Positions 5,170 to 32,359 of a stretch of DNA of 59,415 bases are shown piece by piece. The notes beneath the pieces were generated by a model, which saw only the letters and a program-made list of their open reading frames with translations, had not been told where the DNA came from and searched no databases. Made by a program: the position numbers and the translations under genes. Source of the DNA: a virus (lineage: Duplodnaviria > Caudoviricetes). The stretch lies in IMG/VR virus record IMGVR_UViG_3300020403_000009, positions 1-59,415 of that record; one strand, written 5' to 3'. The stretch's first letter is position 1; each line of letters begins with the position of its first letter.

Positions 5170-5580
5170 TTATAATATTTTTATCATTTCTTTGTTGTAG
5201 CTATCTCCTTGAATATATCCCAGCTCTTCATATGTTTTTATAAGACCATCGTGTTTTATAAGAGCGTATGTAAATTTATTTCCTGCGTTTTGTGCTACTC
5301 TAGTTAGAGCGTCAACCAACAAAGATAAAGCGGCTTTTCTGTTAGCCTTATTAGTATAATCTTTGTTAGATATAATCCAATCCACCCAAGCTACTTTTGA
5401 ATTTGTCATATATATAAATCCTGCACAAACAGGGGTTTTGTCATCATAAACAATTAAACCACCTTTACCTTCATCTGGCAAAAAATCTTTTACAGGAGCA
5501 TCCCATTTCCAATCTTTCCACCAACCTACTAAAATCTGCTCATAGTCAGACTCTTCAAGCGGTCTAATATTTAATTTCAT
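5170..5580 (-). CDS. GNAT-fold acetyltransferase-like protein
   Basis: IRPL..SDY start, VCAGFIY, WVDWIISN, YEELGY; typical position between nozzle and ejection genes. Confidence 0.65.
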   Translation of the reverse strand: MKLNIRPLEESDYEQILVGWWKDWKWDAPVKDFLPDEGKGGLIVYDDKTPVCAGFIYMTNSKVAWVDWIISNKDYTNKANRKAALSLLVDALTRVAQNAGNKFTYALIKHDGLIKTYEELGYIQGDSYNKEMIKIL

Positions 5581-5601
5581 TTAACTACAAAGATACTAAT
5601 T

Positions 5602-7434
5602 TTACGGATAGCTTTTCATTACTTCCGACTCTACTGCGAATAACTCAGTAGCTGTACTATCTGTATTTGTAATTGTAAACTGGCAGTAATGACCTAACAC
5701 TCCGTTAGATTCTGCCTGCTGATTTTTAATATACATTATAAACCCGTCCTGGATTGGTATAGTTACTGCTCCTGTGATTGAATTATCTATAACTATATTG
5801 TTGGTTGCATTCTGTAAATCTATATTTATAGCAGTTACTTTTCCTGCCATCTCTATAGCATTATATGGAGGTGGAGCGTAATATACTATATCTCCTACAG
5901 CTATATCACTTCCAATCTCTAACACTGGATTAGTTGCAAAGTTTATTATAGTGCTTGTACCTACAATATTTACAGAAGAGCTTCTACCTATACCATTAGC
6001 CGAGCGTAAAGAATATTCATCAGAGCCTGCTGGCTGCGTTCCATTGTTTCTTATAAAAGCAAACCAAGCTCCTTCTTTCTTTTCAAACCAGGTGCTATCT
6101 ATGGTAGCTCCTGTCTGTATATCACTGTCTAATGTAACAGACCATGAGCTATCTGATTCTAGGTTTATGGTTTTAAACAATTTATTCTCTAGTGGTTGCT
6201 CATTAAATACACTTGTTACAGTAGAGTTGTGTTGTACATTATAAAAATTATTTCTAACCTCATTGGTATTGTGTCTGTATAAATTACCACCTTTAAAACT
6301 GTAAAAATAATTATTCATACCTATTGTCCAGTCTGGATGGTAAGAGTAGAATGAAGGCCATCCTTTTACACTGTCGCTATAAGTAAGAGTATATAGCAAT
6401 GTAGGGTCTCCTTGAGGAGGTATGATTGGAGGTTGTAGGTTAGGACAGGTAGCATTGTCAAACATCAAATTGTTCTGACCTCCCATATATCCATGGTTAT
6501 AACACTCATAACTTAGCGTTCCATAATTACCAGTAACTGTGATAGTTACATCTCCATAAAAATATTCATATACATTTCCGTCTAATCCCGTCTTAGTTCC
6601 TGAGCTGTACTGCCCATCATATTGTATCAAACTTGTTTTACCAAAGTTTTGGATGGCTATAGGATGCGCCGATGGGACACCAGTTAAAACAAATATACCA
6701 GTCCCTGTACCATATATACCATAATTACCGCCAAAGACAAATACATTTCCAGAACCAATAGATTGAATTGTTGTAGCATTCGTGCTGCTCAAACAATAAT
6801 CAGGAGTTACAGGAATCGGAGTGGGGGTTGGTGTGGGTGTAGGACTAGGACTAGGTGTCGGTGTCGGCGTGGGGGTGGGCGTAGGCACACCTCCGCATAT
6901 ATTTGTTCCACCACAGTCGTACTTATTAGTTACAGTTCCATCAGGCTCAATTAGCAATATTCCTGTTCCTGTTGCTGGCGATGAACCTGGGGTGGCTATA
7001 TAAAATTGATTACTACCATTAAATGGCGTATTAAGATTAGCGTCCAACCAAAAATGCTGTGTTCCACAAGTTACGCCACTATACGAGTTTACGTCAGAGT
7101 ATACTGTTACAGGACAGTTTACACAGGAGGTTGGCTTTACAAACGCACCATTTCCCTGTACTGCATTAAACTGCCAAGCGTATGAAGTAACTGGTGTAGG
7201 AGCAGGGGTAGGTGTATTACAAGATGTACACCCATTGATACCATAGTCTGCTGCTATAGTTATAAATTGTCCTGATGAGGCAACACCATATACTTTCCAA
7301 CAATTACCAACTCCTTGTCCAGGAGCAAGGCCATATATTTGGTAAGTATGGTTAATAGATTGTTGCGTGGTAAAAGACGCATCAGCAAAAACACTTGAAT
7401 TATCGCAGCTCTGTAGCCTATAGTAAAAAGACAT
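5602..7434 (-). CDS. Virion protein: Cys-rich modules, PT repeats, cupredoxin-like domain, and C-terminal part of the tail nozzle/stabilisation protein
   Basis: PT repeats; HP...YECYNHGYMG; C-terminal TLTYSDSVKGWPSFYSY...KLFKTINLE...FEKKEG...ELFAVESE segment. Confidence 0.7.
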   Translation of the reverse strand: MSFYYRLQSCDNSSVFADASFTTQQSINHTYQIYGLAPGQGVGNCWKVYGVASSGQFITIAADYGINGCTSCNTPTPAPTPVTSYAWQFNAVQGNGAFVKPTSCVNCPVTVYSDVNSYSGVTCGTQHFWLDANLNTPFNGSNQFYIATPGSSPATGTGILLIEPDGTVTNKYDCGGTNICGGVPTPTPTPTPTPSPSPTPTPTPTPIPVTPDYCLSSTNATTIQSIGSGNVFVFGGNYGIYGTGTGIFVLTGVPSAHPIAIQNFGKTSLIQYDGQYSSGTKTGLDGNVYEYFYGDVTITVTGNYGTLSYECYNHGYMGGQNNLMFDNATCPNLQPPIIPPQGDPTLLYTLTYSDSVKGWPSFYSYHPDWTIGMNNYFYSFKGGNLYRHNTNEVRNNFYNVQHNSTVTSVFNEQPLENKLFKTINLESDSSWSVTLDSDIQTGATIDSTWFEKKEGAWFAFIRNNGTQPAGSDEYSLRSANGIGRSSSVNIVGTSTIINFATNPVLEIGSDIAVGDIVYYAPPPYNAIEMAGKVTAINIDLQNATNNIVIDNSITGAVTIPIQDGFIMYIKNQQAESNGVLGHYCQFTITNTDSTATELFAVESEVMKSYP

Positions 7435-7456
7435 AGGTTCTTATTTAGTTACAAAT

Positions 7457-8326
7457 TTACGAATTAAATTGCTTTGTCTTTTTACAGGCATCACAATCAG
7501 CTTGTATCAAAGCGACCCAGTCTTTTATAGTTCTGTCTTTTTGTTTGTACTCTAAATCCTGTAGAAAATTCAAACGATATTCTATATCTCTAGGCTGAAA
7601 TAATTCCCTGTAAGTATCTGTAGTTATGTATTTATGCCACACTATATTTTGTGGTATCGCATATAAATCTAAACCATGTAGATATATAAGTAGCGAGTAT
7701 ATTTCTTGTTCTTGATTGTGTTTGAATGTATAATCATCTAATGTTATAGCTTCTGCCAATCTGTTATCTCCAAAAATATTACCTCCAGATATTTGATTTA
7801 CTCTTTCATAAGCCATCTTAGGATGTCTTTGACAATGTGGTTTGTTAAAAGCAGATGTCCAAGGAAGTTCGTGAGGCGTGTATATAGTGGCTATATTTCT
7901 TTTAGTATACTGCTCGTATGATTGATGAAAATCAAAAGATTGCGGAAACACGCTTATCACTGCATTTTCTGGAGCGTTTTTATATATATCTATATAAGTG
8001 GTATCCCAATTATTTAAAAACCTTGAGTGCGAATCAACACACATAAAATAATCCTGTCCTCCATATAGATGCTTTGATATTACATTTCTTGCCCATCCAC
8101 ATCCTTTAGCTTTATTAGCATCAATAGTTTGTAAGAACATATTGTTTCTGTAGGGATGTCCCTTCAATATACTTAGTACATCTATTGTTGCTTGAGGTGT
8201 ATCTTGTAAAAAAACGCCAACAAAAACTCTTTCTGGATGAGCGGCTCTTGTATATAAATCGTCTATGGTTGGTATTAAATCACTGTCCTTATACGATGCT
8301 ATATTAACAAATATACTTTCATTCAT
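7457..8326 (-). CDS. GT60-like glycosyltransferase (Skp1-hydroxyproline GlcNAc-transferase/Gnt1 family)
   Basis: IFVNIASYKD, T...LY.RA.HPERVFVGV..Q, AKGCGWAR, YFMCVDSHSRF..WD and late WH motifs. Start probably 8326, overlapping the upstream stop. Confidence 0.8.
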   Translation of the reverse strand: MNESIFVNIASYKDSDLIPTIDDLYTRAAHPERVFVGVFLQDTPQATIDVLSILKGHPYRNNMFLQTIDANKAKGCGWARNVISKHLYGGQDYFMCVDSHSRFLNNWDTTYIDIYKNAPENAVISVFPQSFDFHQSYEQYTKRNIATIYTPHELPWTSAFNKPHCQRHPKMAYERVNQISGGNIFGDNRLAEAITLDDYTFKHNQEQEIYSLLIYLHGLDLYAIPQNIVWHKYITTDTYRELFQPRDIEYRLNFLQDLEYKQKDRTIKDWVALIQADCDACKKTKQFNS

Positions 8327-9227
8327 GATTAAAAATTGCAACTGAACAAGATGTACATATTTCTCCAAAAGCTTTTTGCATAACTTCTTGTCGCTTTTGT
8401 CCTGTCCAGATTTCTTTTAAAGTTTGTTTATTTAAATCTCCAAATACATAGTCCATATTGTAATCATTGCAACATAAAAAGACTTCACCTTTTGGTGTAA
8501 CATGAAGCCACTCTGTATCTCTCTTAGAAGAACATCCTACAACCTTACCTTCAGGCAAAGGATTCTCCATAACATCTTGCAATAATCCAGCCCTGTCAAT
8601 AAGATTCCATTGAGTCGTAACGCTTATACCTGGAAATAATTGCTTTGCTATTCTAGTTTGCGTTTCAAGTTCGTTCGGTTGCAGCTCTGGAAAATCTTTT
8701 AACTTGATAATATTAGACCTGTTATCAATACCATTAATTTGCAACAACAATATATTTTTATTTAATAGATTGTTTTGAGCATAATAAATGTTAGTAATTA
8801 ATGTTTCAAATAACTTCTCACGCATACCTGTTCTTTTTTCAAACAACTCTCTTTGGTATACTGGTGCGTTGATTGCTATTTGAGAAACCACTCCAGGATA
8901 TTTATTTATAAGGTCTATTTTATTTGGTGTGAGTGGGACACCATTAGTGAGTAAGCATAATGTAAGATTATGTTTTTGTAGCGTTTGCAACATTTGCTCA
9001 AAATATCTATACAATAAGACTTCGTTATAATGTGAAGCATATACAAAATGCAGTCTTGGACTTACAAGCTCGCCTTTTAAATCTACTATTTGTTTTATAA
9101 TAGATTCGTATAGCTCTGGTGGCATTTGGTTTTTATGTTCGCTTGGATTACCATGAATCGAAACTGGGCAGAACCAACATCCAGCATTGCATAATCCATT
9201 AGGGTCTATTTGTATAAAATTTATCAC
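8319..9227 (-). CDS. Radical SAM enzyme with SPASM/twitch domain
   Basis: CNAGCWFC (CxxxCxxC), LLTNG, and C-terminal C...G.VFLCC.D...GDL....L.EIW...CTSC. Confidence 0.9.
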   Translation of the reverse strand: MINFIQIDPNGLCNAGCWFCPVSIHGNPSEHKNQMPPELYESIIKQIVDLKGELVSPRLHFVYASHYNEVLLYRYFEQMLQTLQKHNLTLCLLTNGVPLTPNKIDLINKYPGVVSQIAINAPVYQRELFEKRTGMREKLFETLITNIYYAQNNLLNKNILLLQINGIDNRSNIIKLKDFPELQPNELETQTRIAKQLFPGISVTTQWNLIDRAGLLQDVMENPLPEGKVVGCSSKRDTEWLHVTPKGEVFLCCNDYNMDYVFGDLNKQTLKEIWTGQKRQEVMQKAFGEICTSCSVAIFNHE

Positions 9228-10366
9228 TTTATTTTATAGTGCATAAAAAAGTTTCTATAGTATGTTCCTTGAAAAGGTTCTGTTCTTCCGTGTTGGCACA
9301 AGGCAGATTCATAAAGTATCATATCTCCAGGCTCTGCATAAACCTTATACCACTCTCCATCATGTCCTTGAATATCTAAAGGCCAATCGTCTCCAAACTC
9401 TCGGCTTTGACATCCACACTTTAAATCTTTATCCACTATAATTATAGATGAAACATGATGAGTTTCTATTCTGTCTGTATGTTTTGAAAGGGTTGCTCCC
9501 CTTAAATACGACCTTATACCATACACGAATGTAGGCTCTATATCAACTCCTGCGAACTCTCGGTGTATCGGCAAAAGTTGATTGTGTATCATACTCCTTA
9601 TATGTGGTATATTGTCATACGACATTAATTGACTACCTCCTTGTATAAATGTTTCTTTGCCTGGAAAGTCTTCTTCTACAGTTCGGTCTTTTAATATATG
9701 GTATGAATCCTGAATAATACCCCATATATGCTCTGGTACTTTTACTACATCGAAACCAATATCAGTAAGCTTAGGTATATTAGGAACTACTTTGAGCGGA
9801 GCAGGTTTAGCCGCTCCCCATTCTCGCTCTCTCCACCACGATGTAATAATATATTTCTTGCCTGACGTTACTGGCATACCCTCGTGTATAGTGTCCTCTT
9901 GAGTTTGGCCATCTATCATGTTTTCCCAAGTTACAGCCTTCCCTGTCTCTGGCTGAGTTATGGTATTAAGCTTTGGAAAGTTAGTTCCACCACCCTCAAA
10001 GTCATCATTCAAATAAATCATCAAGGTGTGCGTTCTGTTTCCGCTATGCAAACAATGCTCATTATAAGCAGGACCGCTAAAAAAATCGTGATGAGGTTTA
10101 AAGTATTGACCTACTTCATAGAGCTGACCTTGAATGTTTTCACCTCTCTTTTCATCCAAACCTAGATGGTTTGCTATTTTTAAAAAAACACTTTTTACTA
10201 AGGGGTCGGTGTGACTTAAATTACAAGTGCTTGACGTTCGGCTTTTGTCATCTATAGAAGTTCCTCCAGAACCTGAAACCACTGTAGAAGGCTGGTGGTT
10301 TTTATCTATAATTTTAATTAATTCACTACACTCTTCTTGAGTGAGAAAATTCTGTATTTCAACCAT
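9224..10366 (-). CDS. Tandem 2OG-Fe(II) dioxygenase; N-terminal prolyl-4-hydroxylase-like domain plus a second 2OG domain
   Basis: Domain 1: NFLT.EEC, RTS, Y..GQYFKPHHD, R..T.MIYLND..EGGGT.FP, HEG.PV.SG.K. Domain 2: YGIRSY..GA.L..HTD...PGDMILYES...HGR. Confidence 0.9.
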   Translation of the reverse strand: MVEIQNFLTQEECSELIKIIDKNHQPSTVVSGSGGTSIDDKSRTSSTCNLSHTDPLVKSVFLKIANHLGLDEKRGENIQGQLYEVGQYFKPHHDFFSGPAYNEHCLHSGNRTHTLMIYLNDDFEGGGTNFPKLNTITQPETGKAVTWENMIDGQTQEDTIHEGMPVTSGKKYIITSWWREREWGAAKPAPLKVVPNIPKLTDIGFDVVKVPEHIWGIIQDSYHILKDRTVEEDFPGKETFIQGGSQLMSYDNIPHIRSMIHNQLLPIHREFAGVDIEPTFVYGIRSYLRGATLSKHTDRIETHHVSSIIIVDKDLKCGCQSREFGDDWPLDIQGHDGEWYKVYAEPGDMILYESALCQHGRTEPFQGTYYRNFFMHYKIK

Positions 10367-10393
10367 TAAATTTAATTTGTATAAAGATACAAA

Positions 10394-11203
10394 TTAATAG
10401 CAACTTCCTGACAAAGTGAAACTTGAGCCGTTCCAATATCTATATGAACCGCCTTGCGTGTAATACCCTGGAGTAGCATATGTGCTACATCCACTATTAG
10501 CAAAAGCAATTGTAGCTGTACTTAAAGAAGAGGTGTCAAAGAAATGAGAATCATAATTTCCTGAGCAAACAGCACTGCCTCTTTGTAAGTAAATAGCATA
10601 ACAAGTAGGACTTGGAGTAGGTGTCGGACTAGGACTAGGCGTTGGACTAGGAGTAGGACTAGGCGTTCCCGCACAAGCTGTACAGTTTGAATAGTATCCT
10701 TGAGGAGATATAGCCTGTGGCGTTCCTGTATTTGGACCATATACTTCCCAACATTGACCCGCATATTCTACAGAAGTTCCATAGCTTACTTGTTGTGGTA
10801 ATGAAACATTGTATTGCTGTCCAGTTGAACATTGTTGTAATAAATAGTCATAGGTCGGAGCTGGTGTAGGCGTTGGACTAGGACTTGGGCTTGGCGTTGG
10901 ACTAGGTGTAGGACCTGGTGTAGGGCTTGGAGTTGGACTAGGACTAGGTGTAGGTGTAGGGCTAGGGCTAGGACTAGGAGTTGGGCTAGGTGTGGGCGTA
11001 GGAGTTGGAGTCGGTGTTGGAGTAGGAGTAGGTACAGTACAACCTTGAGACGCTAATAATACACCTGAAACCTGCTGTCTAACTATAGACGAATCTGAAT
11101 ACCATCCATTAGCTGATACTGTAGTTAAATTTGCATCGTCATAAACAGTTGTTGCGTTTGCAAAACTTGCAGTATCAAAATAATATGTTCCTAGTGTTGC
11201 CAT
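10394..11203 (-). CDS. Pro-Thr/Pro-Ser repeat, Cys-rich virion accessory protein
   Basis: Three small beta/Cys modules separated by long (PT/PS)n linkers. Confidence 0.75.
10856..11036 (-). repeat. Hexamer repeat encoding (Pro-Thr/Pro-Ser)n
   Basis: Direct reading. Further tracts at about 10604-10667, 6800-6890, 7188-7215 and 12941-12980. Confidence 0.95.
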
Positions 11204-11206
11204 TTT

Positions 11207-14200
11207 TTAACAATTTATAATTTGACTTGGCGCTCCTGTTGAAGAATTAAATCTTAACGCTACCCCACTTCCAGTTCCACAAGAAGCACCTTGATAATAC
11301 CACTTGCTACTTATAGAGTATTGCAGGTAGTCTATAACTTTTGTTTTCTTAGCCTTATCCATCCACACGACATCTGATGTAGTTACGCAAGTTGTGCTGC
11401 CATCATGATAATAGTTTTGAGTGGTTGCAGTAGGACCATTATTACACGCATCTGTATTAGTAGAGAACCAACTTTCAACTTCATTCATTGTAAACTCTTG
11501 AACACATAGTGAATAGTAAGAGCTGCCTTGAGCGTTTACAAGTCCACTCGCTCCAATATAAAGGTTTACACCTGGTGTTACGCTATTTGTCTGAGCAGCA
11601 CCATAGTATAATGGAAGACCCGTGCCTGAATCGCTTCCATCAAATGTGGTTGTTAATCCAATATCTGTATAAGCGATGACAGTATATCCGTTAGTGTAAG
11701 CAAAATCTAACTGCTCTGTATTTTGAATAAAGATATTTCCTCCGCCAGGATTATATATTAAGTAAACTGATATAGCGCTACTGACAGTGTATGTACAAGA
11801 AGTGCTTGTGCTTGATTCTCCTGATTGTTGTCCATTATTTAAGTACCAAGCCTGTGGTGTTGAACAAGCTCCGTCTTGAGTTACTGCGCCATTTGTATTA
11901 GTGGTAAGGTAATTCCCATAAGTTGTACCACACGGAGAATAGTAGTTACTATAAGCACCAGCATAAAGAGGTGTAAGTAAATCTACATCGGTAAATATGT
12001 TATCAGAAGTTGAAGCTTGCGCACAAGCAGTTGAGCCAGTATGGTAATATGTCGTAGTGGGTTTTCCAGGACCCCAAGCACAAACACTTCCCAAAGGTGC
12101 GTAGTTATCTGAAGTTATTTCTATTGCAGTTATACAAGAATCAAATAAATCGCTTCCAGTTGTAGTAACGAGCGTACCTGTCTGAGAAACATTTATTGTC
12201 ATACCTGTATCTACTGTACCTGCGCCGCCGCCAGAAGCTCTAATTCCAACCCATGGGGCTAAGCTGCTATTTGGTATGAATGCTGTAGTTCCTCCTGCAT
12301 CTGTCCAAGCATTTACTGTTCTTCCAGCTGTTGCTGCATCTCTAAGGTCTTGAGCTGTGGATATAGCACCAGTACTATCACTTAAATATAAAGTTCCTGT
12401 TGAAGGTATTTGAATATTTTGAGCGCATGAGTTAGAGCTTGAAGAATAACCATTTCCATACACCGCCATATTAGTTAACCATGCTCCAGTAGGAGTAGGA
12501 GTAGGTGTTGGAGTTGGAGTAGGAGTAGGAGTAGGCGTAGGCGTAGGCGTAGGCGTAGGCGTAGGTGTTGGAGTCGGAGTCGGAGTAGGTGTTGGAGTCG
12601 GAGTAGGAGTCGGTGTAGGAGTCGGTGTAGGACTAGGACTTGGTGTTGGTGTAATATTACACACACCAGCAGTATCAATATTAGAAACTGTACCTATATC
12701 CGTCATTCTAAATATTCCTTCACTAAGACCATACCCTTTATTAGGTTCTCTTACACCAAAGTAGTTGTCTCCTCCTTGGAATAATGTTGTTAAAGATGCG
12801 TCTGTATAAAACAATGTGCTACCAGTTGCAGTTGTAGCAAATGAACTGGATGCACTATAAATAGGTGTAGATGCAAATGGGCAAGTAGATGGACTTGTTG
12901 CGCTACCAGTACCAGGCTCAATCAACCATCTGTAAGATACAGGTGCTGGTGTCGGAGTTGGAGTTGGTGTCGGTGTTGGGAATGTGCAACCAGTACAAGC
13001 ATCTGATGTGCTGGTAGTAGAAAAACATAAGTTTGCACTAGATGGTTTTCTGTAATCCCATATTAAATACAAGAAACGCCCCCCTGCTGGCAACGTAAAG
13101 CTACCGCTAAATTGATTTGGATTGGTTTCACTTACAACTGTGGTATTGGCTGCTGCTGCCAACAAACTATTTATATCACTTCCATTATTACCGTAAAAAG
13201 TGTTTGTTCTTAAATATTTTAATTTATTTTTAGAGATATCAAAAACAAAATTGTCAAAATTTTGTTTTCTACTTATTATTGACACTATAGATGCATCTCC
13301 AGGTATAACTCCTGCGCCTTGGAATCCAGCTACAAAATTGTACTGAGATACTATTGGGTTTGTATTGCTTGAAGAAAACTGTATTCTTTCTGAATGCAGC
13401 GGAGATGTAAATGTTCCGTCAGTCCATCTGTACTGATTAGTAATAAACTGTCCAGCATCTGAATTACTTGTAACAGCTACATTATAAATTGTTATTTCTT
13501 GTGCCTGTGGGCATCCAGTTGTTATATCAATGGTATCTGAAGTAGTGCTATCTTGAGTAACACTAATTTCAACTGTAGTGGTATTAACACTGTTTTTGTT
13601 AAATGTCAAAGTGCCGCTCTGATTTACTGGGCCAGTGCTATGAGACACCCCGTTATATGTTGCTGTTATAGTGTAATTAGTTGTACTTGTTTGCGCTTCA
13701 AGAACCATTTCATCTGATAATGCTTCTGTTACAACATTTGAATTTGTTTCGGAAACTATATTAGTAAAACCACCATCAAAAGGTATTTCATAATCAATAT
13801 CAACCAGTCCTAATAAGTCACCAACATCTACACAATATGTAAATGTTGTATTAGGCTCTATTACGATGTTTTTTGCTGTATCACAAGGTAAACATTCATC
13901 GTCTGCTGGAGGTAATTGTACATTTGAATGCAACACATACTCATTCATGTATGGGTCAAACCCTCCTAGCTTTTGTGTTTGGAAAGTATCTATAAATAAA
14001 TCTCTAAACCACGAGCGCATACCTGCTTCTGATATAACTTGAAGCTGCTCGTTATTATACGCACCTCCAATTAGATTTATTACCGCTCCACGCTTGGCAT
14101 CAGTAAAATATTTATTAGGCCCATAGGATGCATAACTCTCTGGGTTTTCACTAATACCATATTCTTCTAATCTAGCTATCTGTGTTCCTAACACTTCTGG

Positions 14201-17200
14201 CACAGACGTTACTGCACCTCCTCCAGTAGCATCACTTAGTAAATTTTTACCTGCTAAAACATAAGATATTTTATCTTCTTGCAGGGTAAGAATATCTGTT
14301 TTTCTACCATCTAATAACTGTACAGGCCCATAAGACTCTTCTAATGGTTTAAAATTAGCTAGTCCTAGGTTGAACTCATTTAATTTATTTACGTTCGTTT
14401 CATCGTTATATACACCACTATAAGTCAAATCAGCAAATCTATGTTCCTGCTTATAGTCCATATTAGATGTAGATGTAACACGCTCTCCAAGATTTAATGT
14501 TTTGCCTGTTATAGAGTCTAACATCTTGTAGCTTTCTACACCATTTCCAAAAGTGTAACAGTTCGAAAACTCTGTATCAATAATTGCTGATTGACCAGAG
14601 GTTTGATTTTGCACATTACCACTATGCATACCATCTGTATCAACAGGAAAAGATAAATGGTTTTCATACCAAACATTTGATAAAGCATCAGTAGGCTGTG
14701 TTTCAAAAACAATTAAACTATCTGCTCTATAAATTTGTATATCAGCTGTTACTGTTGAACGTCTTTTTGCTCTTGATAATGTACCACTGCAACGAACCGT
14801 TCCAGTAATAAGTAAAGATAATTCTCCATCTCCACCAGCTGGAGCTGGTTCTCTATAAAACTTATAATAGTTAGTTCCCTCAGAAGTTGATATGTCTGTT
14901 TTTGTTGTAGCAGTCGCTGACTCATATGTATTCGTAATGCTTCCAGTATTACCTCCAACCTCAGTAACCGCTCGGTTTAAAACCTCCTCTACATTATCTC
15001 CATTCCACCAGTCCTGCATATTATTGTAAGTTCTAGAAGATATAAGTTCAACATCTAATTGACTTATTCTTCTTTCACATTTTCCGTTTCCTTGCCCTGG
15101 CCCTAATCTTTCTTGCCTTATTGACATTATAATCCTACTTCCAGAAGGAACATCATAATCTAAAAACTGACCAGGATTTGCTGGGTCAGCTAAATTCATA
15201 GGATATGCAAGAATAGGGTAATCGTTAGCAGTGTCTTGAATATCAGTTAATGAACCAGGTGTAACAATGTCATTATCTCCTCTTTCTGTAGCGAAATTAT
15301 TAGGATTAATTTTCATATATGTTCCAGCAGGCGATGTAATAGAAGCTCCTTGAGAATCAGTTAAAAAATCTGCTGACTTAGCCTCTTTTTCTAAAACTGT
15401 GGCCTCAACACACCTTAAAACTGGACCTGAACTGTCAGACTTCACAAAGTATCTATCTCCCTCCTCTACTTTATTTGCATTCTCTCCTTCTAATAAAAAG
15501 TAAGTAGCATTGCTACCTGGGTCTTTAAAATATATGTTTGAATAAATAGTATCATATGTAGACTCATATGGTTTTAATACAAATTTATACCTTGTTGCCC
15601 AACTTGGAGCTAACTGCTGAGTTGGAACAATTACTCTTATTTCATTTTTATTAATAGAGTTTTGACATGGTATCTCTACAGTATTATTTGGACTGACAAG
15701 AGCGGTAGATGAGCGTCCAAAACTATCCATATATACTATACCCACCTCATATCCTCTATTGCTATGTAAACTTCTTGGATTGTCAAGATTACTAAAAGAA
15801 GCAGTAGCTGTTATTATTTCATAAAATTCATAAGCATTATTAGCTCCATCTACATACTGCATAGCAGTAAGCTGAAGCCCAATAGTATTACTTGCTGGAG
15901 ATGCTATAATTTCAATAGGCTCTGCTGTTGCAGTAATACCGCTTGCAGTTTTTGTGTATGTTCCTAATGTAGAAGGAAGCGCACAATTAATACGGTCTGT
16001 TAATGTTGTTCCATTACAAGCATCAACAACAGGTTGTATATTTGATGCAGTACCAACCTTTTCAATAAAATCTGTGCTTGTAGCTAATGAATATACATTA
16101 TTAAAATCTACTGGTAATACATATTCAAACAATATATCAGTTGATGAGGTTGTGGCCGATGGAGTATTATCAGTAAACTGGCTATGAGTAATAGTAAAAT
16201 CTAAAGAAATAGTTGAGCCAGCAGTAAGTTCTAAAGTTGTTCCATTTTGATTTGATAAATCAAAGTATATAATAGAGTTGTTTACATTCACTGGCGTTGG
16301 ACCTATAGTATAGTATCCTGCTCCTCTAGTATCCACAAGCTCAGAAGTAGCAATTTCTGTGCTATTTAAATCTGCTTCAAACTCTAATTTTATATCATTA
16401 CCAAACTTATCTTTTAAATCATAGCCCTCTTTGTAGTTTCCATAAACAACTCTATTACCCATTACAGTTTGAGCTTTAGCTATAATAGGAACATTGTCAT
16501 ACAATCTTAGCAGTTCTGAGTCTGGTAATAAAGTAAATATCTTACTGTTATCAAACGTATAAGTATAATCTGTATCATTAGAGTATCCTAAATTGGATTT
16601 ATCTAAATACTCTATGACTTTAATATTGTTTGTGGTAGATTCTTTGAAAAGCAACTGAATACCCTCTACGAGCGAACCTCCTGAATTAAAAGTTATAATC
16701 GCCGCATTCTTAGTATTCCTCATTCCTTCATTCAAATAGCTATTATAGCTAAATGAAAAAGTTGAAGGATTAAAAGCATATTGACTAAACTGAGAAGTAG
16801 CTGAGTATTGATTGTCTGCATACTTATATCTATATGCAAAAGCAATAAAACGCTCCTCTAAGTAATCATCTTCTTGACCTACTACATTAAAAGTTTGAAT
16901 ACTTGGAGCGGATACTGGTGGCCTTTTTATTACCATCAATGATTCCGCCGTAAAACCATCAAGATTGTTAGTAGGAGATGAATATCTTCTATTTACATTT
17001 ATTACTCTTGGTGGATTAAGATTATCCGTAAAAAATAAAAGAGAGTTATCAATAAGATTAACTCCAGTAATTAAGTGATATGGGCTAAAGTTTAAAGTAG
17101 TATTTATACCACCTCCGTCATCAAGACTTATTATATGATATGTAGTCGAGTTGTCAGTAGTATTATAAGAAACAATTAAATCAAGCTTACTTGTGTTTCC

Positions 17201-17482
17201 TAAAGTAAAAGCTGGGTCGTGTATAAACCAATAAATAGTTTCATTAGCACCATCTTCATAAGCACCTATACATCTAGCGTTATTACTAAGCTCAACCCCG
17301 TCAAACATAATAGTTGTTAGCCCAGTATTACCTTTTGAGTTTTCTACCGAACCATATTCAGATTCCTCGGTAGAACCAAGTCTTACATTTAATGCGTCAA
17401 TATATTCACCATTTGGTAAAAGCCTTTCATCAAGGCTTTTATTCATACGGCCTCTTATAAAATTTCTTTGAATATTTGCCAT
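11207..17482 (-). CDS. Tail nozzle/stabilisation protein (N-terminal major part) with PT-repeat and repeated beta-module extension
   Basis: [22 protein letters not shown] start, [35 protein letters not shown] motifs of crAss-like stabilisation proteins; follows the ring genes. Confidence 0.75.
12488..12652 (-). repeat. Hexamer tandem repeat encoding (Pro-Thr)n
   Basis: GTAGGA/GTAGGC/GTCGGA/GTTGGA units; synonymous variation between units indicates selection on the protein. Confidence 0.95.
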
Positions 17483-29623: not shown

Positions 29624-29762
29624 ACATTAAGTACCATTTGTGGACTGTGTATCCAATTGATACTAAAAGTAATACAATTTTTAATACAATATCTATCTCA
29701 GTCATAGATACTCCTAATACCAAACTATTTATACCTAATATTTTTATATCATTAATATTCAT
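29607..29762 (-). CDS. Small membrane protein (holin/antiholin-like)
   Basis: 51 aa MNINDIKILG...IVLLLVSIGYTVHKWY; overlaps both neighbours. Confidence 0.65.
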   Translation of the reverse strand: MNINDIKILGINSLVLGVSMTEIDIVLKIVLLLVSIGYTVHKWYLMYGKNK

Positions 29763-30883
29763 TATGCTGTATAAGTACCACTCCCAGTATAGGTTAATAT
29801 TGTATCGCTGCCATCAGTTGTCACTGTTGGACTTCCTGTAGTTGTTCCGCTATATTCAGCTGTTGGTAGTCTTAAAATAACTACTCCTGAACCACCATTT
29901 TTTCCAAGTTGGTTGTTGTTATATTGAATACCACCACCGCCACCACCGCCTGTATTGGCAGTACCTGCGGTTGCAGTTTGACAAGATGTATCATATCCAC
30001 CACCTCCAGTACCTCCTCCTTCTGAGTTAGTACAAGCAGCAACTCCGTGACAGCCTACAAAATCTGAGCCACCTATTCCTCCACCTCCTCTTCCAACTGA
30101 TGTCCCAGTAATTGAAGAATAAGCTCCTGCATTTCCAGTACCTGCACCACCACCATTTCTTCCTGATGGCCCTCCAGATGAGTTACAACTTCCTTGTCCA
30201 TCATTACCTTGACCCGTAGTCCCTGTTCCATTTACTCCACAAGTAGAGCCACCCCAAGAGCCACCTCCACCACCAGAGCCTCCATCTCCTCCATCATTTA
30301 CTAAACCAGCTGATGCACAATCTGGACTTGGTCCACCTGCTCCACCTGTGCCTCCACCTATAGATGTTATTGTTGTAATATCTGCTCCTGAAATACTTGA
30401 GTTTCCCCCTCCATTTCCGTCTAAACCACCTGTATTATACTGAGGTTTTGTAGTTGTAGCAGCACCTCCACCACCAACTGTAATTGTATAAGTTGTTCCA
30501 ATCTTAAATCCTACAGGAGTTTCTGTTGATGACCCACCTCCTGAATCTTCAGATGCGTATGAGTTTCTATAACCGCCAGCTCCACCGCCACCACCTCTTG
30601 CTTGGCTGTATGGTGTGCTTCCTGCTTGAATAGTATTACCACCCGAACCACCACCAGCAATAATTAAATACGATACACTAATAGGGTCCGCTTTAACATC
30701 AGAAAACTGAATCCATTGAACGCCATCATAATACTCCACCTTATTATCAACTGTATTATATCTTATCTCTCCATTAGAAGCAGAGCTAGGTCTTGCAGCT
30801 GTTGTTCCAACTGGCAACTGAACAGATGCAGTATTATCATTAAAACCTAATAAGTCTGAACTTAATATTTTGGTAGTAGCCAT
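29762..30883 (-). CDS. Glycine-rich fibre protein
   Basis: GTTAARP, IRYNT, YLIIAGGGSGG, ANTGGGGGG, GGSGVVILR. Confidence 0.8.
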   Translation of the reverse strand: MATTKILSSDLLGFNDNTASVQLPVGTTAARPSSASNGEIRYNTVDNKVEYYDGVQWIQFSDVKADPISVSYLIIAGGGSGGNTIQAGSTPYSQARGGGGGAGGYRNSYASEDSGGGSSTETPVGFKIGTTYTITVGGGGAATTTKPQYNTGGLDGNGGGNSSISGADITTITSIGGGTGGAGGPSPDCASAGLVNDGGDGGSGGGGGSWGGSTCGVNGTGTTGQGNDGQGSCNSSGGPSGRNGGGAGTGNAGAYSSITGTSVGRGGGGIGGSDFVGCHGVAACTNSEGGGTGGGGYDTSCQTATAGTANTGGGGGGGIQYNNNQLGKNGGSGVVILRLPTAEYSGTTTGSPTVTTDGSDTILTYTGSGTYTA

Positions 30884-31285: not shown

Positions 31286-32359
31286 TTAATGTGTATAAGT
31301 ACCGCTTCCAGTATAAGTTAATATTGTATCACTTCCATCTGTAGTTACAGTGGGAGAACCTGTAGTTGTTCCGCTATATTCAGACGTTGGCATTCTTAAA
31401 ATAACTATTCCAGAACCTCCTGCTCCTCCAACTGCATTATTATGTGAAGCGTGAGCATTTTGCCCAGACCCGCCGCCGCCTGTGTTTGCAGTTCCATCAT
31501 TTCCAGGAGTCGCTCCAATAATAAAATAACTACCTAATCCGTCAGCGCCTCCACCAGCTCCACCAGGGAAACCAGTTGAACTATTTCCACCAGCAACAGT
31601 AGCACCAGCTCCACCAGCTCTAGTTACAGCTGAACCAGTTATTGAAGAGCTTGCTCCGTCTCCACCGTGTCCACCACCATTAGTGCCGCCAGTTTCTCCA
31701 GCGCCGCCACCGCCGCCACCTCTAGCAGAGTCTCCGCTTTCTCCAGCATATCCATGAGTTACTGGGTTTGTTACGGCTGCTCCACCAGCACCATAATATC
31801 CACCACCACCACCAGAGCCTCCAGTTCCGCTTAAATTAAAACCTCCAGCAGCACCTCCACCAATAGATTCGATAGTAGTTATATCTGAACCAGATATAGA
31901 CGAGCTAATCCCTTGGTTGCCTCTAGCGTGACTACTTGACCCAGTGGGTCTTCTTGCTCCACCAGCTCCGACTGTTATAGTGTATTGTGTTCCAGAAGAA
32001 AATGCTAACATCTGCTCAGTTGGTTCTCCACCTCCAGAAGTTTCTGAAGCATAAGAATTTCTATAGCCACCGCCACCTCCTCCACCAGAGCCGTACCCAG
32101 TTCCTCCAGAGCCTCCTCCTGCAATAACAAGATAAGAAACAAAAGGTATTGTTTCAGTATTCATTCTAACCCAACTCGTTCCGTTATAAAATTCAAAGGT
32201 AGTTGCGGCACTATTATTTGTAATAGAACTATTGTTTCTAATCATACCAGCCACAGGAGTTCCTGTAAACGAACTTGACCCTACTGGCATTTGAAATACA
32301 GTATCTACATTTGTTTCATTTAAATCTACTAAGCTTCCGCCTACTTTAGTTGTTGCCAT
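31286..32359 (-). CDS. Glycine-rich fibre protein, paralog of 29762-30883
   Basis: Same architecture with a nearly identical C-terminus. Confidence 0.8.
   Translation of the reverse strand: MATTKVGGSLVDLNETNVDTVFQMPVGSSSFTGTPVAGMIRNNSSITNNSAATTFEFYNGTSWVRMNTETIPFVSYLVIAGGGSGGTGYGSGGGGGGGYRNSYASETSGGGEPTEQMLAFSSGTQYTITVGAGGARRPTGSSSHARGNQGISSSISGSDITTIESIGGGAAGGFNLSGTGGSGGGGGYYGAGGAAVTNPVTHGYAGESGDSARGGGGGGAGETGGTNGGGHGGDGASSSITGSAVTRAGGAGATVAGGNSSTGFPGGAGGGADGLGSYFIIGATPGNDGTANTGGGGSGQNAHASHNNAVGGAGGSGIVILRMPTSEYSGTTTGSPTVTTDGSDTILTYTGSGTYTH

What the first reader, a model, noticed from the sequence alone, without database searches (positions are those of the whole stretch)
7457..10366. Candidate phage-encoded hydroxyproline-glycosylation pathway beside its likely Pro-repeat substrates
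Seen: three translationally coupled genes (P4H-like double dioxygenase, radical SAM/SPASM, GT60-like transferase). A -7-like element at 10382-10389 precedes them. They are flanked on both sides by the only genes carrying (PT/PS)n tracts. Known: prolyl-4-hydroxylase plus GT60 Gnt1 is the pair that makes Hyp-O-GlcNAc on Skp1 in Dictyostelium/Toxoplasma. (XP)n tracts are P4H substrates in algal and plant hydroxyproline-rich glycoproteins, and chlorovirus PBCV-1 has its own P4H. Inference: the phage hydroxylates and glycosylates stiff polyproline-II stalks on its tail, making an extensin/mucin-like virion decoration. This could aid protease resistance, adhesion, or entry through glycan-uptake receptors of Bacteroidota. 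I do not know of this being described in a bacteriophage.
Basis: partly seen in the sequence, partly recalled or inferred. Interest (0 to 1): 0.93.

Follow-up and report, generated by a model that had tools for sequence, protein, structure and literature searches.

The report
Phage tail-linker hydroxylase and glycosyltransferase cassette
A marine flavobacterial-type phage carries, in the middle of its tail genes, a proline-hydroxylase-type enzyme, a radical SAM enzyme and a mucin-type protein sugar transferase that most likely decorate the Pro-Thr linkers of its own tail proteins, a modification not yet shown chemically in any bacterial virus.

Summary
The three genes are real and correctly typed. 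Gene 9224-10366 fuses a collagen-type prolyl 4-hydroxylase domain (all 8 PDB sequence hits are P4Hs; HxD..H..K kept) to a second, intact 2OG oxygenase domain whose model is nearest PHD-type prolyl hydroxylases. Gene 8319-9227 is a radical SAM enzyme nearest BtrN. Gene 7457-8326 is a GT60 (PF11397) transferase with a DSH motif and a fold nearest mucin-type polypeptide GalNAc-transferases. The only real Pro-rich tracts in the window lie in the three flanking tail genes. The cassette sits at the same site in related phage contigs. Its parts recur beside Pro-rich repeat proteins in at least three other phage lineages. In close relatives the slot is swapped for other glycosyltransferases, including a hydroxyproline-arabinosyltransferase-like family, plus sugar-tailoring enzymes. 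Relatives without any oxygenase mostly lack Pro-rich tracts (7 of 8), but a tree shows only two independent changes, so this contrast is weak. Acceptor (Hyp or Thr/Ser), sugar and the radical SAM step are unproven. The -7-like element is a one-mismatch match of no weight. This scan has noted the same kind of cassette on other DNA (8 earlier notes). I found no paper reporting it.

The parts
9224..10366 (-). Fused double 2OG-Fe(II) oxygenase (380 aa). The N domain (about residues 1-195, 9782-10366) is a collagen-type prolyl 4-hydroxylase. The C domain (residues 196-380, 9227-9781) is a second oxygenase of an unnamed family.
   Evidence: N domain: PF13640 4.9e-16. All 8 PDB hits are prolyl 4-hydroxylases, best 4.6e-25, with H92, D94, H161 and K171 aligned to the Bacillus anthracis enzyme's HxD..H..K. 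C domain: no Pfam hit at E<=0.1; H101, D103 and H164 (domain numbering) invariant in 30 sequences. AF2 model pLDDT 96. Foldseek top hits are Pseudomonas PPHD, Dictyostelium PHD and human PHD2, TM 0.56-0.65.
8319..9227 (-). Radical SAM enzyme with a C-terminal auxiliary Fe-S domain (302 aa).
   Evidence: Radical_SAM plus SPASM. CX3CX2C (C13, C17, C20) and C232, C252, C253, C291, C294 invariant in 31 sequences. Best solved relative is BtrN, 1e-9 alone and 1e-12 with the profile, over both the core and the auxiliary domain; next is YydG at 1e-4. No NCBIfam model reaches its cut-off.
7457..8326 (-). GT60-type (PF11397) GT-A glycosyltransferase, 289 aa from the probable ATG at 8326.
   Evidence: PF11397 1.2e-35, 124 bits against a cut-off of 21. 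D98-S99-H100 and H231 invariant in 20 sequences. AF2 model pLDDT 88.6. Foldseek ranks 1-10 are all polypeptide GalNAc-transferases (GT27), E down to 4e-10.
10394..11203 (-). 269-aa tail appendage protein: a conserved about 55-residue N-terminal domain, then Cys-containing modules joined by (PT/PS)n linkers. Candidate substrate.
   Evidence: Pro-rich tracts at 10850-11041 and 10601-10672, 88 residues in all. phrog_15511. The N-terminal 55 residues are conserved in relatives with and without linkers.
11207..17482 (-). 2091-aa virion structural (tail) protein. Its variable C-terminal extension carries (PT)n linkers. Candidate substrate.
   Evidence: Tracts at 12932-12985 and 12482-12655. Residues 1-1499 match 'virion structural protein' of Cellulophaga phages phi18:3, phi19:3, phi13:2 and phi46:3 at 31% identity.
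5602..7434 (-). 610-aa tail protein with a crAss muzzle-protein C-terminal domain and an N-terminal part holding (PT)n linkers. Candidate substrate.
   Evidence: PF25729 4.2e-18. Tracts at 7183-7218 and 6802-6891.
10382..10389 (-).
   Evidence: One mismatch to TAnnTTTG, within a 27-nt gap. The exact motif is barely enriched in the window and absent here. Not counted as evidence.

Best explanation
This is a tail-protein tailoring cassette, read with the structural genes and acting in the cytoplasm on the phage's own tail proteins before or during assembly.

Step 1 (inferred from family): the fused oxygenase uses Fe(II), 2-oxoglutarate and O2 to hydroxylate prolines in the (Pro-Thr/Pro-Ser)n linkers. 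These linkers join the small Cys-containing modules of the three flanking tail proteins.

Step 2 (inferred): the GT60 transferase adds a hexosamine-type sugar from a UDP-sugar to the linker. The acceptor is most likely the new hydroxyproline, as in the Skp1 and plant HRGP pathways. Neighbouring Thr/Ser is possible.

Step 3 (weakest): the BtrN-like radical SAM enzyme works together with the transferase. It either tailors the sugar or prepares or alters the acceptor residue.

The result would be a stiff, sugar-coated linker on the distal, host-facing parts of the tail. Related phages change the glycan by swapping the transferase and sugar-tailoring genes at this one site.
For: Enzyme identity:
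- P4H domain: 8 of 8 PDB hits are peptidyl prolyl 4-hydroxylases and the catalytic HxD..H..K is kept.
- Second oxygenase domain is intact and nearest PHD-type prolyl hydroxylases by fold.
- The transferase is PF11397/GT60 with a DSH motif. Its fold is nearest the enzymes that start mucin O-glycans on Pro/Thr/Ser-rich peptides.

Place:
- The cassette is embedded, with overlaps or gaps of at most 27 nt, in a long same-strand run of tail genes.
- The only real Pro-rich tracts of the window are in the three flanking genes.

Synteny:
- 17 of 21 IMG/VR loci found with the transferase profile carry C domain, radical SAM and GT in this order. 15 of those 17 also have the N domain. Several of the 21 are near-duplicates.

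Other lineages:
- L010-L013, one on a 229-kb contig, have GT60 plus a P4H-like gene just after proteins with APTVTPT or PPTPA repeats and a giant fibre with a Peptidase_S74 domain, along with GT2, GT7 and GT32 genes, a methyltransferase and a cytidylyltransferase-like gene.
- In a distant group, 10 loci have P4H-like, radical SAM and GT60-like genes (radical SAM about 40% identity), and 8 of the 10 have a Pro-rich ORF of 74-283 tract residues.
- L021/L023 carry the full cassette in a phage with a different portal, and L023 has phrog_15511 PT proteins nearby.

Slot swapping:
- By my tally of these calls, all 23 relatives with an oxygenase also have a glycosyltransferase-like gene in the slot.
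- The types are GT60, GT32, O-FucT-like, or a family of which 2 of 5 members match Pfam HPAT (hydroxyproline O-arabinosyltransferase, best 2e-7, 30.7 bits against a cut-off of 23.9).

Contrast:
- 23 of 23 relatives with an oxygenase have 80-341 Pro-rich tract residues.
- 7 of 8 relatives without one have 0-19.

Radical SAM and GT link:
- The two are fused in one 622-aa ORF in a Syntrophorhabdaceae MAG.
- The Atlas lists a 61-member cluster of GT2 plus radical SAM plus SPASM fusions.
Against: - No chemistry of any kind has been done.
- The within-family contrast rests on only 2 independent changes on the tree (sign test p 0.5).
- L066 has the longest Thr-Pro tracts (420 residues) with GT60 and GT32 but no oxygenase. 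L072, L075 and L081 have a GT60 with hardly any Pro-rich tract. GT60 therefore does not need a phage P4H, and Pro-rich tracts do not need one either.
- Most radical SAM homologues lie elsewhere: 47 of 62 diverse viral loci lack the P4H-like cluster, and some sit next to ribonucleotide reductase or chaperonin genes.
- PT linkers and extra enzymes could both simply mark a variable tail region.
- The DSBH fold matches are only moderate (TM about 0.6) and such folds resemble one another.
- 76 of 80 bacterial GT60-like loci have neither partner.
Confidence: 0.6

Rival explanations
1. Mucin-type reading. The GT60 enzyme glycosylates Thr/Ser of the PT/PS linkers directly, as protist GT60 polypeptide GlcNAc-transferases do. 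Prolyl hydroxylation is then a separate modification (for example linker stiffening), or the oxygenases hydroxylate something else on the same proteins.
For: - The transferase fold is nearest Ser/Thr-directed polypeptide GalNAc-transferases.
- GT60 genes occur without any oxygenase in 4 of 31 relatives. These include L066, with 28% Thr and 17% Pro in the neighbouring protein.
- Every second linker residue here is Thr or Ser.
Against: - Those oxygenase-free GT60s are a longer subtype (413-420 aa, 26-38% identity). The short subtype of this window lies with a P4H-like or C-type oxygenase in 21 of 21 viral loci.
- P4H-type genes also pair with an HPAT-like family.
Confidence: 0.25
2. Host-takeover reading. 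The oxygenases and partners modify host proteins (for example translation factors or ribosomal proteins, as PHD-type bacterial enzymes do) or host envelope glycans. Their place among the tail genes would be incidental.
For: - The C domain's closest fold is Pseudomonas PPHD, solved with EF-Tu.
- Stand-alone homologues are common in cyanophages.
Against: - The cassette keeps a fixed position between tail genes in relatives.
- Oxygenase plus GT pairs recur next to Pro-rich fibre proteins in unrelated phages.
- The slot is otherwise filled with protein-type glycosyltransferases and sugar-tailoring enzymes.
Confidence: 0.08
3. DNA hypermodification, or synthesis of a small molecule or RiPP, by an oxygenase, radical SAM and glycosyltransferase set.
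For: - Oxygenase plus GT sets are known for phage DNA base modification (recalled; PMC7824862 passages cite such systems).
- Radical SAM/SPASM enzymes often mature peptides (NCBIfam partial hits).
Against: - The oxygenase is P4H-type, not TET/JBP. No TET_JBP hit was listed for the window protein at E<=0.1.
- GT60 and its structural neighbours act on polypeptides.
- There is no small precursor ORF inside the cassette.
- No NCBIfam maturase model reaches its cut-off.
Confidence: 0.04

Closest known systems
Skp1 hydroxyproline glycosylation pathway of Dictyostelium and Toxoplasma (PhyA prolyl 4-hydroxylase, then Gnt1, a GT60 GlcNAc-transferase, then further GTs)
   Same: - It is a cytoplasmic pair of a 2OG prolyl hydroxylase and a PF11397/GT60 transferase.
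- The Dictyostelium PHD (6t8m) is among the top 10 fold matches of the C domain.
- Other phage loci add GT2 and GT32 extenders, and in L011 the GT60 is fused to a GT32-type domain.
   Different: - The target here would be long repeat linkers of phage tail proteins, not one Pro of Skp1.
- The N domain is collagen-type, not PHD-type.
- A radical SAM enzyme sits between the two genes.
- My knowledge of this pathway is recalled. Of PMC3515798 I saw only the search listing and the start of the abstract.
Plant and green-algal hydroxyproline-rich glycoproteins (P4H acting on (Ser-Pro)n or poly-Pro, then Hyp O-arabinosyl or galactosyl transferases such as HPAT)
   Same: - Repeats of X-Pro are the presumed substrate.
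- Chlamydomonas P4H structures are among the 8 PDB hits of the N domain.
- Relatives put an HPAT-like gene in the same slot.
   Different: - This would happen in the bacterial cytoplasm, not the ER/Golgi.
- The window itself has GT60, not HPAT.
- The HPAT match is modest and reached by only 2 of 5 members.
Protist GT60 polypeptide alpha-GlcNAc-transferases and animal GT27 polypeptide GalNAc-transferases (mucin-type O-glycan initiation on Thr/Ser)
   Same: - The fold is GT-A with a DxH (DSH) metal motif, and the best structural matches are GT27 enzymes.
- The acceptor regions are Pro/Thr/Ser-rich.
   Different: - Those enzymes need no hydroxylase.
- They are Golgi enzymes, many with lectin domains. 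The phage enzyme is a bare 289-aa catalytic domain.
Giant-virus protein tailoring: chlorovirus PBCV-1 prolyl 4-hydroxylase, and mimivirus L230 collagen lysyl hydroxylase/glucosyltransferase
   Same: - It is a virus-encoded hydroxylase acting on the virus's own repeat proteins.
- A viral P4H structure (5c5t; its assignment to PBCV-1 is recalled) is among the N domain's PDB hits.
- PMC9301287 passages cite Eriksson 1999 for Hyp in viral proteins.
   Different: - Those are viruses of eukaryotes.
- No GT60 or radical SAM partner is known there, and the substrates are not tail fibres.
BtrN (radical SAM 2-deoxy-scyllo-inosamine dehydrogenase, Twitch-type auxiliary cluster)
   Same: - It is the best solved relative over both the CX3CX2C core and the auxiliary-cluster region.
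- Five conserved C-terminal Cys are kept, fewer than a full SPASM motif (the motif count is recalled).
   Different: - Similarity is weak (51 bits).
- The substrate here is unknown.
- The gene context is a protein glycosyltransferase, not aminoglycoside synthesis.

Membership tests
Collagen-type prolyl 4-hydroxylase (PF13640 / P4Hc), N domain | Sequence membership above the curated threshold, with nearest solved relatives being peptidyl P4Hs | tested here: met
   PF13640 at 59.9 bits against a cut-off of 27. 8 of 8 PDB hits are prolyl 4-hydroxylases, best 4.6e-25.
Collagen-type prolyl 4-hydroxylase (PF13640 / P4Hc), N domain | Fe(II) triad HxD...H and the Lys that binds 2-oxoglutarate | tested here: met
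   H92, D94, H161 and K171 align with the corresponding residues of the B. anthracis enzyme (alignment).
Collagen-type prolyl 4-hydroxylase (PF13640 / P4Hc), N domain | Hydroxylates peptidyl proline at C4 | not testable with these tools
   Needs an enzyme assay and mass spectrometry.
PHD-type protein prolyl hydroxylase, C domain | DSBH fold with HxD...H, nearest PHD/PPHD structures | tested here: inconclusive
   The triad is invariant. Top Foldseek hits are PPHD, Dictyostelium PHD and PHD2, but TM is only 0.56-0.65 and identity 12-17%. No Pfam hit was listed and there is no PDB sequence hit.
CAZy GT60 / Pfam PF11397 (GlcNAc) | Sequence membership above the curated threshold | tested here: met
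   124.1 bits against a cut-off of 21, in two stretches covering profile positions 1-40 and 97-277.
CAZy GT60 / Pfam PF11397 (GlcNAc) | GT-A fold with a DxH-type metal motif | tested here: met
   D98-S99-H100 and H231 are invariant. The model has pLDDT 88.6 and is nearest GT27/GT2 GT-A enzymes. That DxH defines these families is recalled.
CAZy GT60 / Pfam PF11397 (GlcNAc) | Transfers GlcNAc from UDP-GlcNAc to Hyp (Gnt1) or Thr/Ser of a polypeptide | not testable with these tools
   Donor and acceptor need assays. Context favours a polypeptide acceptor.
Radical SAM / SPASM-Twitch | CX3CX2C cluster motif | tested here: met
   C13, C17 and C20 are invariant in 31 sequences. PF04055 at 44.5 bits against a cut-off of 29.5.
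Radical SAM / SPASM-Twitch | Full SPASM seven-Cys motif (two auxiliary clusters) as opposed to Twitch (one cluster) | tested here: inconclusive
   PF13186 at 49.3 bits, but only 5 conserved C-terminal Cys. The best solved relative is the Twitch enzyme BtrN.
Named radical SAM maturases (anSME, PqqE, SCIFF, mycofactocin, DynA and others) | Score above the NCBIfam equivalog cut-off | tested here: not met
   The best is spiro-SPASM at 53.9 bits against a cut-off of 250. All 13 listed families fall far below their cut-offs.
Hydroxyproline O-arabinosyltransferase (PF23452 HPAT); relatives' slot only, not in the window | Sequence membership above the curated threshold | tested here: inconclusive
   L033 protein scores 30.7 bits against a cut-off of 23.9. 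2 of 5 homologous members match at E<=0.01. No PDB relative.
TET/JBP DNA base oxygenase system | TET_JBP-type oxygenase domain | tested here: not met
   No PF12851 hit for the window protein at E<=0.1. A distant homologue (L173) gave only 16.6 bits against a cut-off of 34.9.

The most novel reading that the evidence does not exclude
Tailed phages of aquatic bacteria build plant-like hydroxyproline-rich glycoprotein linkers on their tail fibres. A cytoplasmic prolyl hydroxylase makes the acceptor. One hot-swappable gene slot (GT60 with a radical SAM partner, HPAT-like, GT32, O-FucT-like with carbamoyltransferase, sugar aminotransferase plus acetyltransferase) rewrites the glycan between close relatives. 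This would explain what the very common 'viral P4H' genes of marine viromes are for. The recurrent coupling and fusion of the radical SAM enzyme with the transferase would mark a new radical-SAM-dependent step in protein glycosylation.
Probability: 0.35. Interest if true: 0.85.

Novelty: new variant of a known kind. Interest (0 to 1): 0.72.

Why it matters
- Prolyl 4-hydroxylase (K00472) is among the most frequent 'auxiliary' genes in aquatic viromes. One survey found it at 62% of Baltic water stations and calls its use by viruses cryptic (PMC9301287, passages read).
- This locus and its relatives give a concrete, testable answer: the enzyme tailors the phage's own tail-fibre linkers, together with protein glycosyltransferases.
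- If true, it would be the first hydroxyproline-based glycoprotein system in a bacterial virus.
- It would be a cytoplasmic bacterial counterpart of the protist Skp1 and plant extensin pathways.
- It would add a new layer of host-range and stability variation: glycan swapping at one slot.
- It would also supply compact enzymes for making Hyp-glycosylated linkers in bacteria.

Tried and rejected
Close DNA relatives among cultured phages: none (megablast).

By protein search in the phage collection:
- The transferase matched only Xanthomonas jumbo phages XacN1 and Xoo-sp13, at 27-28% identity.
- The radical SAM enzyme matched nothing.
- The oxygenase matched only half-length hits.
- I therefore found no cultured carrier of the cassette in that collection.
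- The XacN1 neighbourhood has a carbamoyltransferase and a GT9 but no annotated hydroxylase. It is not a close analogue.

Profile searches against PDB sequences gave nothing useful for the transferase, the C domain or the HPAT-like family.

Within-family statistics:
- The raw contrast looks strong: 23 of 23 against 1 of 8.
- The tree shows 2 independent changes only, sign test p 0.5. I do not use the contrast as a significance claim.
- In that script I copied the table by hand and gave the window a placeholder tract value of 999. Its real value is 206. This does not change its binary state.

Bacterial genomes: of 80 loci kept out of 157 relatives of the transferase, 76 have neither partner, 2 have a P4H-like gene and 2 a radical SAM gene. 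All are at most 35% identical and none is from Bacteroidota, so there is no host clue.

The promoter-like element is rejected as evidence.

Literature searches:
- (terms listed there) gave no paper on hydroxyproline or GT60 glycosylation of phage proteins.
- In PMC7824862 I read only the matched passages; none concerns this.
- In PMC12774648 I read two passages, on phage oxygenases resembling EGLN3.
- Supplementary files were not opened and could hold gene lists that bear on this.
- The library lacks most subscription journals. Mycobacteriophage virion glycosylation is recalled, not seen.

Not run: complex prediction (an enzyme with its substrate is rarely informative), the sequencing-run tools, the search of protein representatives and the metagenome scan.

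Full report
WHAT IS THERE

The window is a whole 59,415-base virus record, estimated 98% complete. Its large tail protein matches virion structural proteins of Cellulophaga phages phi18:3, phi19:3, phi13:2 and phi46:3. It also matches Flavobacterium 'elemo', Tenacibaculum and Maribacter phages at about 31-33% identity. The host is therefore probably a member of the Flavobacteriia.

From 2527 to about 39400 nearly all long ORFs are on the - strand. Within this run lie, in transcription order:
- a 2091-aa tail protein (17482-11207)
- a 269-aa Pro-Thr protein (11203-10394)
- the three cassette genes (10366-7457)
- a 610-aa protein with a crAss muzzle C-terminal domain (7434-5602)
- a 136-aa GNAT-like protein

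Gaps around the cassette are 27 and 22 nt. Inside it the genes overlap.

THE ENZYMES

(a) Gene 9224-10366 is a fusion of two oxygenase domains.
- Residues 1-183 align with Bacillus anthracis P4H at 4.6e-25.
- All 8 PDB sequence hits are prolyl 4-hydroxylases (B. anthracis, human C-P4H alpha-2, Chlamydomonas, and a viral one). H92, D94, H161 and K171 are in register with the catalytic residues.
- Residues 196-380 have no Pfam hit at E<=0.1. They form a family of about 190-aa stand-alone proteins, with 59 hits, which one source labels 'prolyl 4-hydroxylase'.
- In 30 aligned members, H101, D103, H164 and R166 are invariant.
- The AF2 model is confident (pLDDT 96). Its best fold matches are Pseudomonas PPHD (alone and with EF-Tu), a Shewanella oxygenase, the Dictyostelium PHD and human PHD2. 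TM is 0.56-0.65.

(b) Gene 8319-9227 is a radical SAM enzyme.
- It has CX3CX2C and five conserved C-terminal cysteines.
- Its only clear solved relative is BtrN, matched in both the core and the auxiliary-cluster region (1e-9; 1e-12 with a profile). Next is the peptide epimerase YydG at 1e-4.
- No named maturase model comes near its cut-off.

(c) Gene 7457-8326 is a PF11397 (GT60) transferase, 124 bits.
- D98-S99-H100 and H231 are invariant.
- The model (pLDDT 88.6) is nearest polypeptide GalNAc-transferases. These enzymes start mucin-type O-glycans, and they fill Foldseek ranks 1-10.
- Homologue alignment places the start at 8326, not 8368.

THE CANDIDATE SUBSTRATES

With a strict pattern, only three ORFs of >=100 aa have (P[TS])>=3 runs, and they are the three tail genes that flank the cassette.

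A looser Pro-rich window over 192 six-frame ORFs gives the same three genes, with 42, 88 and 76 tract residues. It also flags two short frames antisense to two paralogous Gly-rich genes, which are artefacts.

The tracts join small Cys-containing modules. They sit in the parts of these proteins that vary between relatives:
- the C-terminal extension of the big protein
- everything after the first 55 residues or so of the 269-aa protein
- the N-terminal part of the muzzle-like protein

COMPARATIVE EVIDENCE

1. A transferase profile found 21 IMG/VR loci.
   - 17 of the 21 carry C domain, radical SAM and GT in the same order. 15 of those 17 also have the N domain.
   - Most lie between homologues of the same tail genes.
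   - Several of the 21 are near-duplicates.

2. The other four loci (L010-L013, one from a 229-kb contig) belong to different phages.
   - There the GT60 and a stand-alone P4H-like gene follow a 1713-1856-aa fibre with a Peptidase_S74 domain.
   - Directly before them lie proteins made of Cys-containing modules joined by APTVTPT, PPTPA or PTPA repeats.
   - The same clusters hold GT2, GT7 and GT32 genes (GT32 fused to the GT60 in L011), a methyltransferase and a cytidylyltransferase-like gene.

3. A radical SAM profile found 268 viral relatives, of which 80 were kept.
   - I analysed 62 diverse loci. 15 have a P4H-like cluster, 14 a GT60-like cluster and 11 both, within 4 kb.
   - Ten loci show P4H-like, radical SAM and GT60-like genes by tblastn, at only about 26%, 40% and 26% identity. 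8 of those 10 have a Pro-rich ORF of 74-283 tract residues.
   - Other radical SAM loci sit beside a GT1/methyltransferase/GT25 fusion and a GT9, beside ribonucleotide reductase, or beside a chaperonin. The family is not confined to this use.

4. L021/L023 carry the full cassette in a phage with a different portal and a tape-measure-like gene. L023 has phrog_15511 PT proteins about 4 kb upstream.

In 31 of the 80, both flanking tail genes were present, so the slot could be read.

Contents of the slot in those 31 loci:

| Slot type | Contents | Loci |
|---|---|---|
| NCRG | N, C, radical SAM, GT60 | 3 |
| -CRG | C, radical SAM, GT60 | 1 |
| NC-G | N, C, GT60-like; O-FucT-like in all 5, an NAD-epimerase in at least 2 | 5 |
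| NC-- | N, C plus a GT32, an HPAT-like or an O-FucT-like gene | 11 |
| -C-- | stand-alone C-type oxygenase plus O-FucT-like, carbamoyltransferase and a 184-aa unknown | 3 |
| ---G | long-type GT60 only | 4 |
| ---- | nothing | 4 |

   - One HPAT-like locus also has a DegT aminotransferase and a GNAT.
   - By my tally of these calls, all 23 loci with an oxygenase also have a glycosyltransferase-like gene.
   - The HPAT match is modest: 30.7 bits against a cut-off of 23.9, and 2 of 5 members match.
   - Close relatives (at least 73% identity in the tail protein) differ in slot content, so the slot turns over fast.

THE CONTRAST AND ITS LIMITS

The 23 loci with an oxygenase have 80-341 Pro-rich tract residues. 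Of the 8 without one, seven have 0-19 and one (L066) has 420.

On a tree of the tail protein (FastTree, 32 rows) oxygenase presence changes only twice, and so does the tract state. The sign test gives p 0.5. The within-family contrast therefore counts as two events, not 31.

The stronger argument is the repeated positive co-occurrence in separate lineages (points 2-4). Such cases are not contrasts.

L066 shows that long Thr-Pro tracts can go with GT60 and GT32 and no phage oxygenase. L072, L075 and L081 show a GT60 with almost no Pro-rich tract. These are a longer GT60 subtype of 413-420 aa.

THE RADICAL SAM ENZYME

It always lies between oxygenase and transferase in the phage cassettes.

In two of 80 bacterial GT60-like loci it lies next to the transferase without any oxygenase. 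In one of them, a Syntrophorhabdaceae MAG, both are one 622-aa ORF: PF11397 at 3e-61 plus Radical_SAM plus SPASM.

The ESM Atlas lists a 61-member bacterial cluster of GT2, radical SAM and SPASM fusions as a structural neighbour.

This argues that the enzyme works with the transferase. In sister loci the same slot holds sugar-tailoring enzymes, and the nearest solved relative oxidises a sugar-like substrate. I therefore lean towards sugar tailoring, at perhaps 40%. Acceptor modification is the other option. Neither is shown.

MECHANISM PROPOSED

Shown:
- gene families and catalytic motifs
- position in the tail operon
- co-occurrence with Pro-rich tail proteins

Inferred:
- late co-expression
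- hydroxylation of linker prolines
- transfer of a HexNAc-type sugar to Hyp (or Thr/Ser)
- a coupled radical SAM step
- a glycan coat on the distal tail parts that is diversified by slot swapping

The enzymes have no evident signal peptide (read from the sequences). This fits action in the cytoplasm, where virions assemble.

COMPARISON WITH THE KNOWN

The nearest analogues are the cytoplasmic Skp1 Hyp-glycosylation pathway (PHD-type hydroxylase plus GT60), plant and algal Hyp-rich glycoproteins (P4H plus HPAT), mucin-type initiation by GT60/GT27, and giant-virus hydroxylases.

The present system differs in four ways: its host (a tailed phage), its presumed target (tail-fibre linkers), the double oxygenase, and the radical SAM partner.

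Four literature searches found no report of it. One virome paper calls the role of viral P4H cryptic.

This scan has noted similar cassettes in at least 8 other genomes. Those notes are unchecked and I do not count them as evidence.

VERDICT

A tail-protein hydroxylation and glycosylation system is the best reading (0.6). The Hyp linkage itself is less certain, and the ecological benefits are untested.

Novelty is a new variant of a known kind. Interest is 0.72.

Noticed in passing
window 29762-30883 and 31286-32359 (- strand): Two paralogous Gly-rich proteins (373 and 357 aa). They share the N-terminus MATTK and a nearly identical C-terminal stretch of about 45 residues. Their antisense frames mimic Pro-rich ORFs. 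The region has the highest G+C in the window (0.436).
   Followed up: partly
L250:7998-9866 (Syntrophorhabdaceae MAG): A single 622-aa ORF fuses a GT60 domain to a homologue of the window's radical SAM enzyme. It lies just after DUF2169, pentapeptide-repeat, DUF3540 and PAAR-like genes, a type VI secretion-style neighbourhood. It might therefore be a secreted protein-glycosylating effector.
   Followed up: partly
L027, L039, L058, L077, L082, L099 (slot between the tail genes): A recurring trio of an O-FucT-like transferase, a carbamoyltransferase and a 184-aa protein of no known family replaces the radical SAM and GT60 pair. Xanthomonas phage XacN1 also has a carbamoyltransferase beside its GT60-like gene (L260).
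   Followed up: partly
window 7452-7459 and 5588-5595 (- strand): Exact TAnnTTTG matches lie just upstream of the muzzle-like gene and of the 136-aa GNAT-like gene. There is none before the cassette.
   Followed up: no
window 5170-5580 (- strand): A 136-aa protein (phrog_17252, weak acetyltransferase match) follows the muzzle-like gene. It is kept in relatives with and without the cassette, so it is probably not part of it.
   Followed up: partly
L174:1993-2229 and 10 other distant loci: A 79-aa protein with a weak DUF6171 match (26.3 bits, just under the cut-off of 27) lies between the Pro-rich protein and the P4H-like gene in the distant radical SAM group. The window's cassette has no counterpart.
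   Followed up: no
L013:8372-9991 and L011:6556-7260: The Pro-rich repeat protein of L013, and a protein next to the Pro-rich one in L011, carry weak, below-cut-off Hint/intein-like matches. This may point to self-cleaving or self-attaching modules.
   Followed up: no
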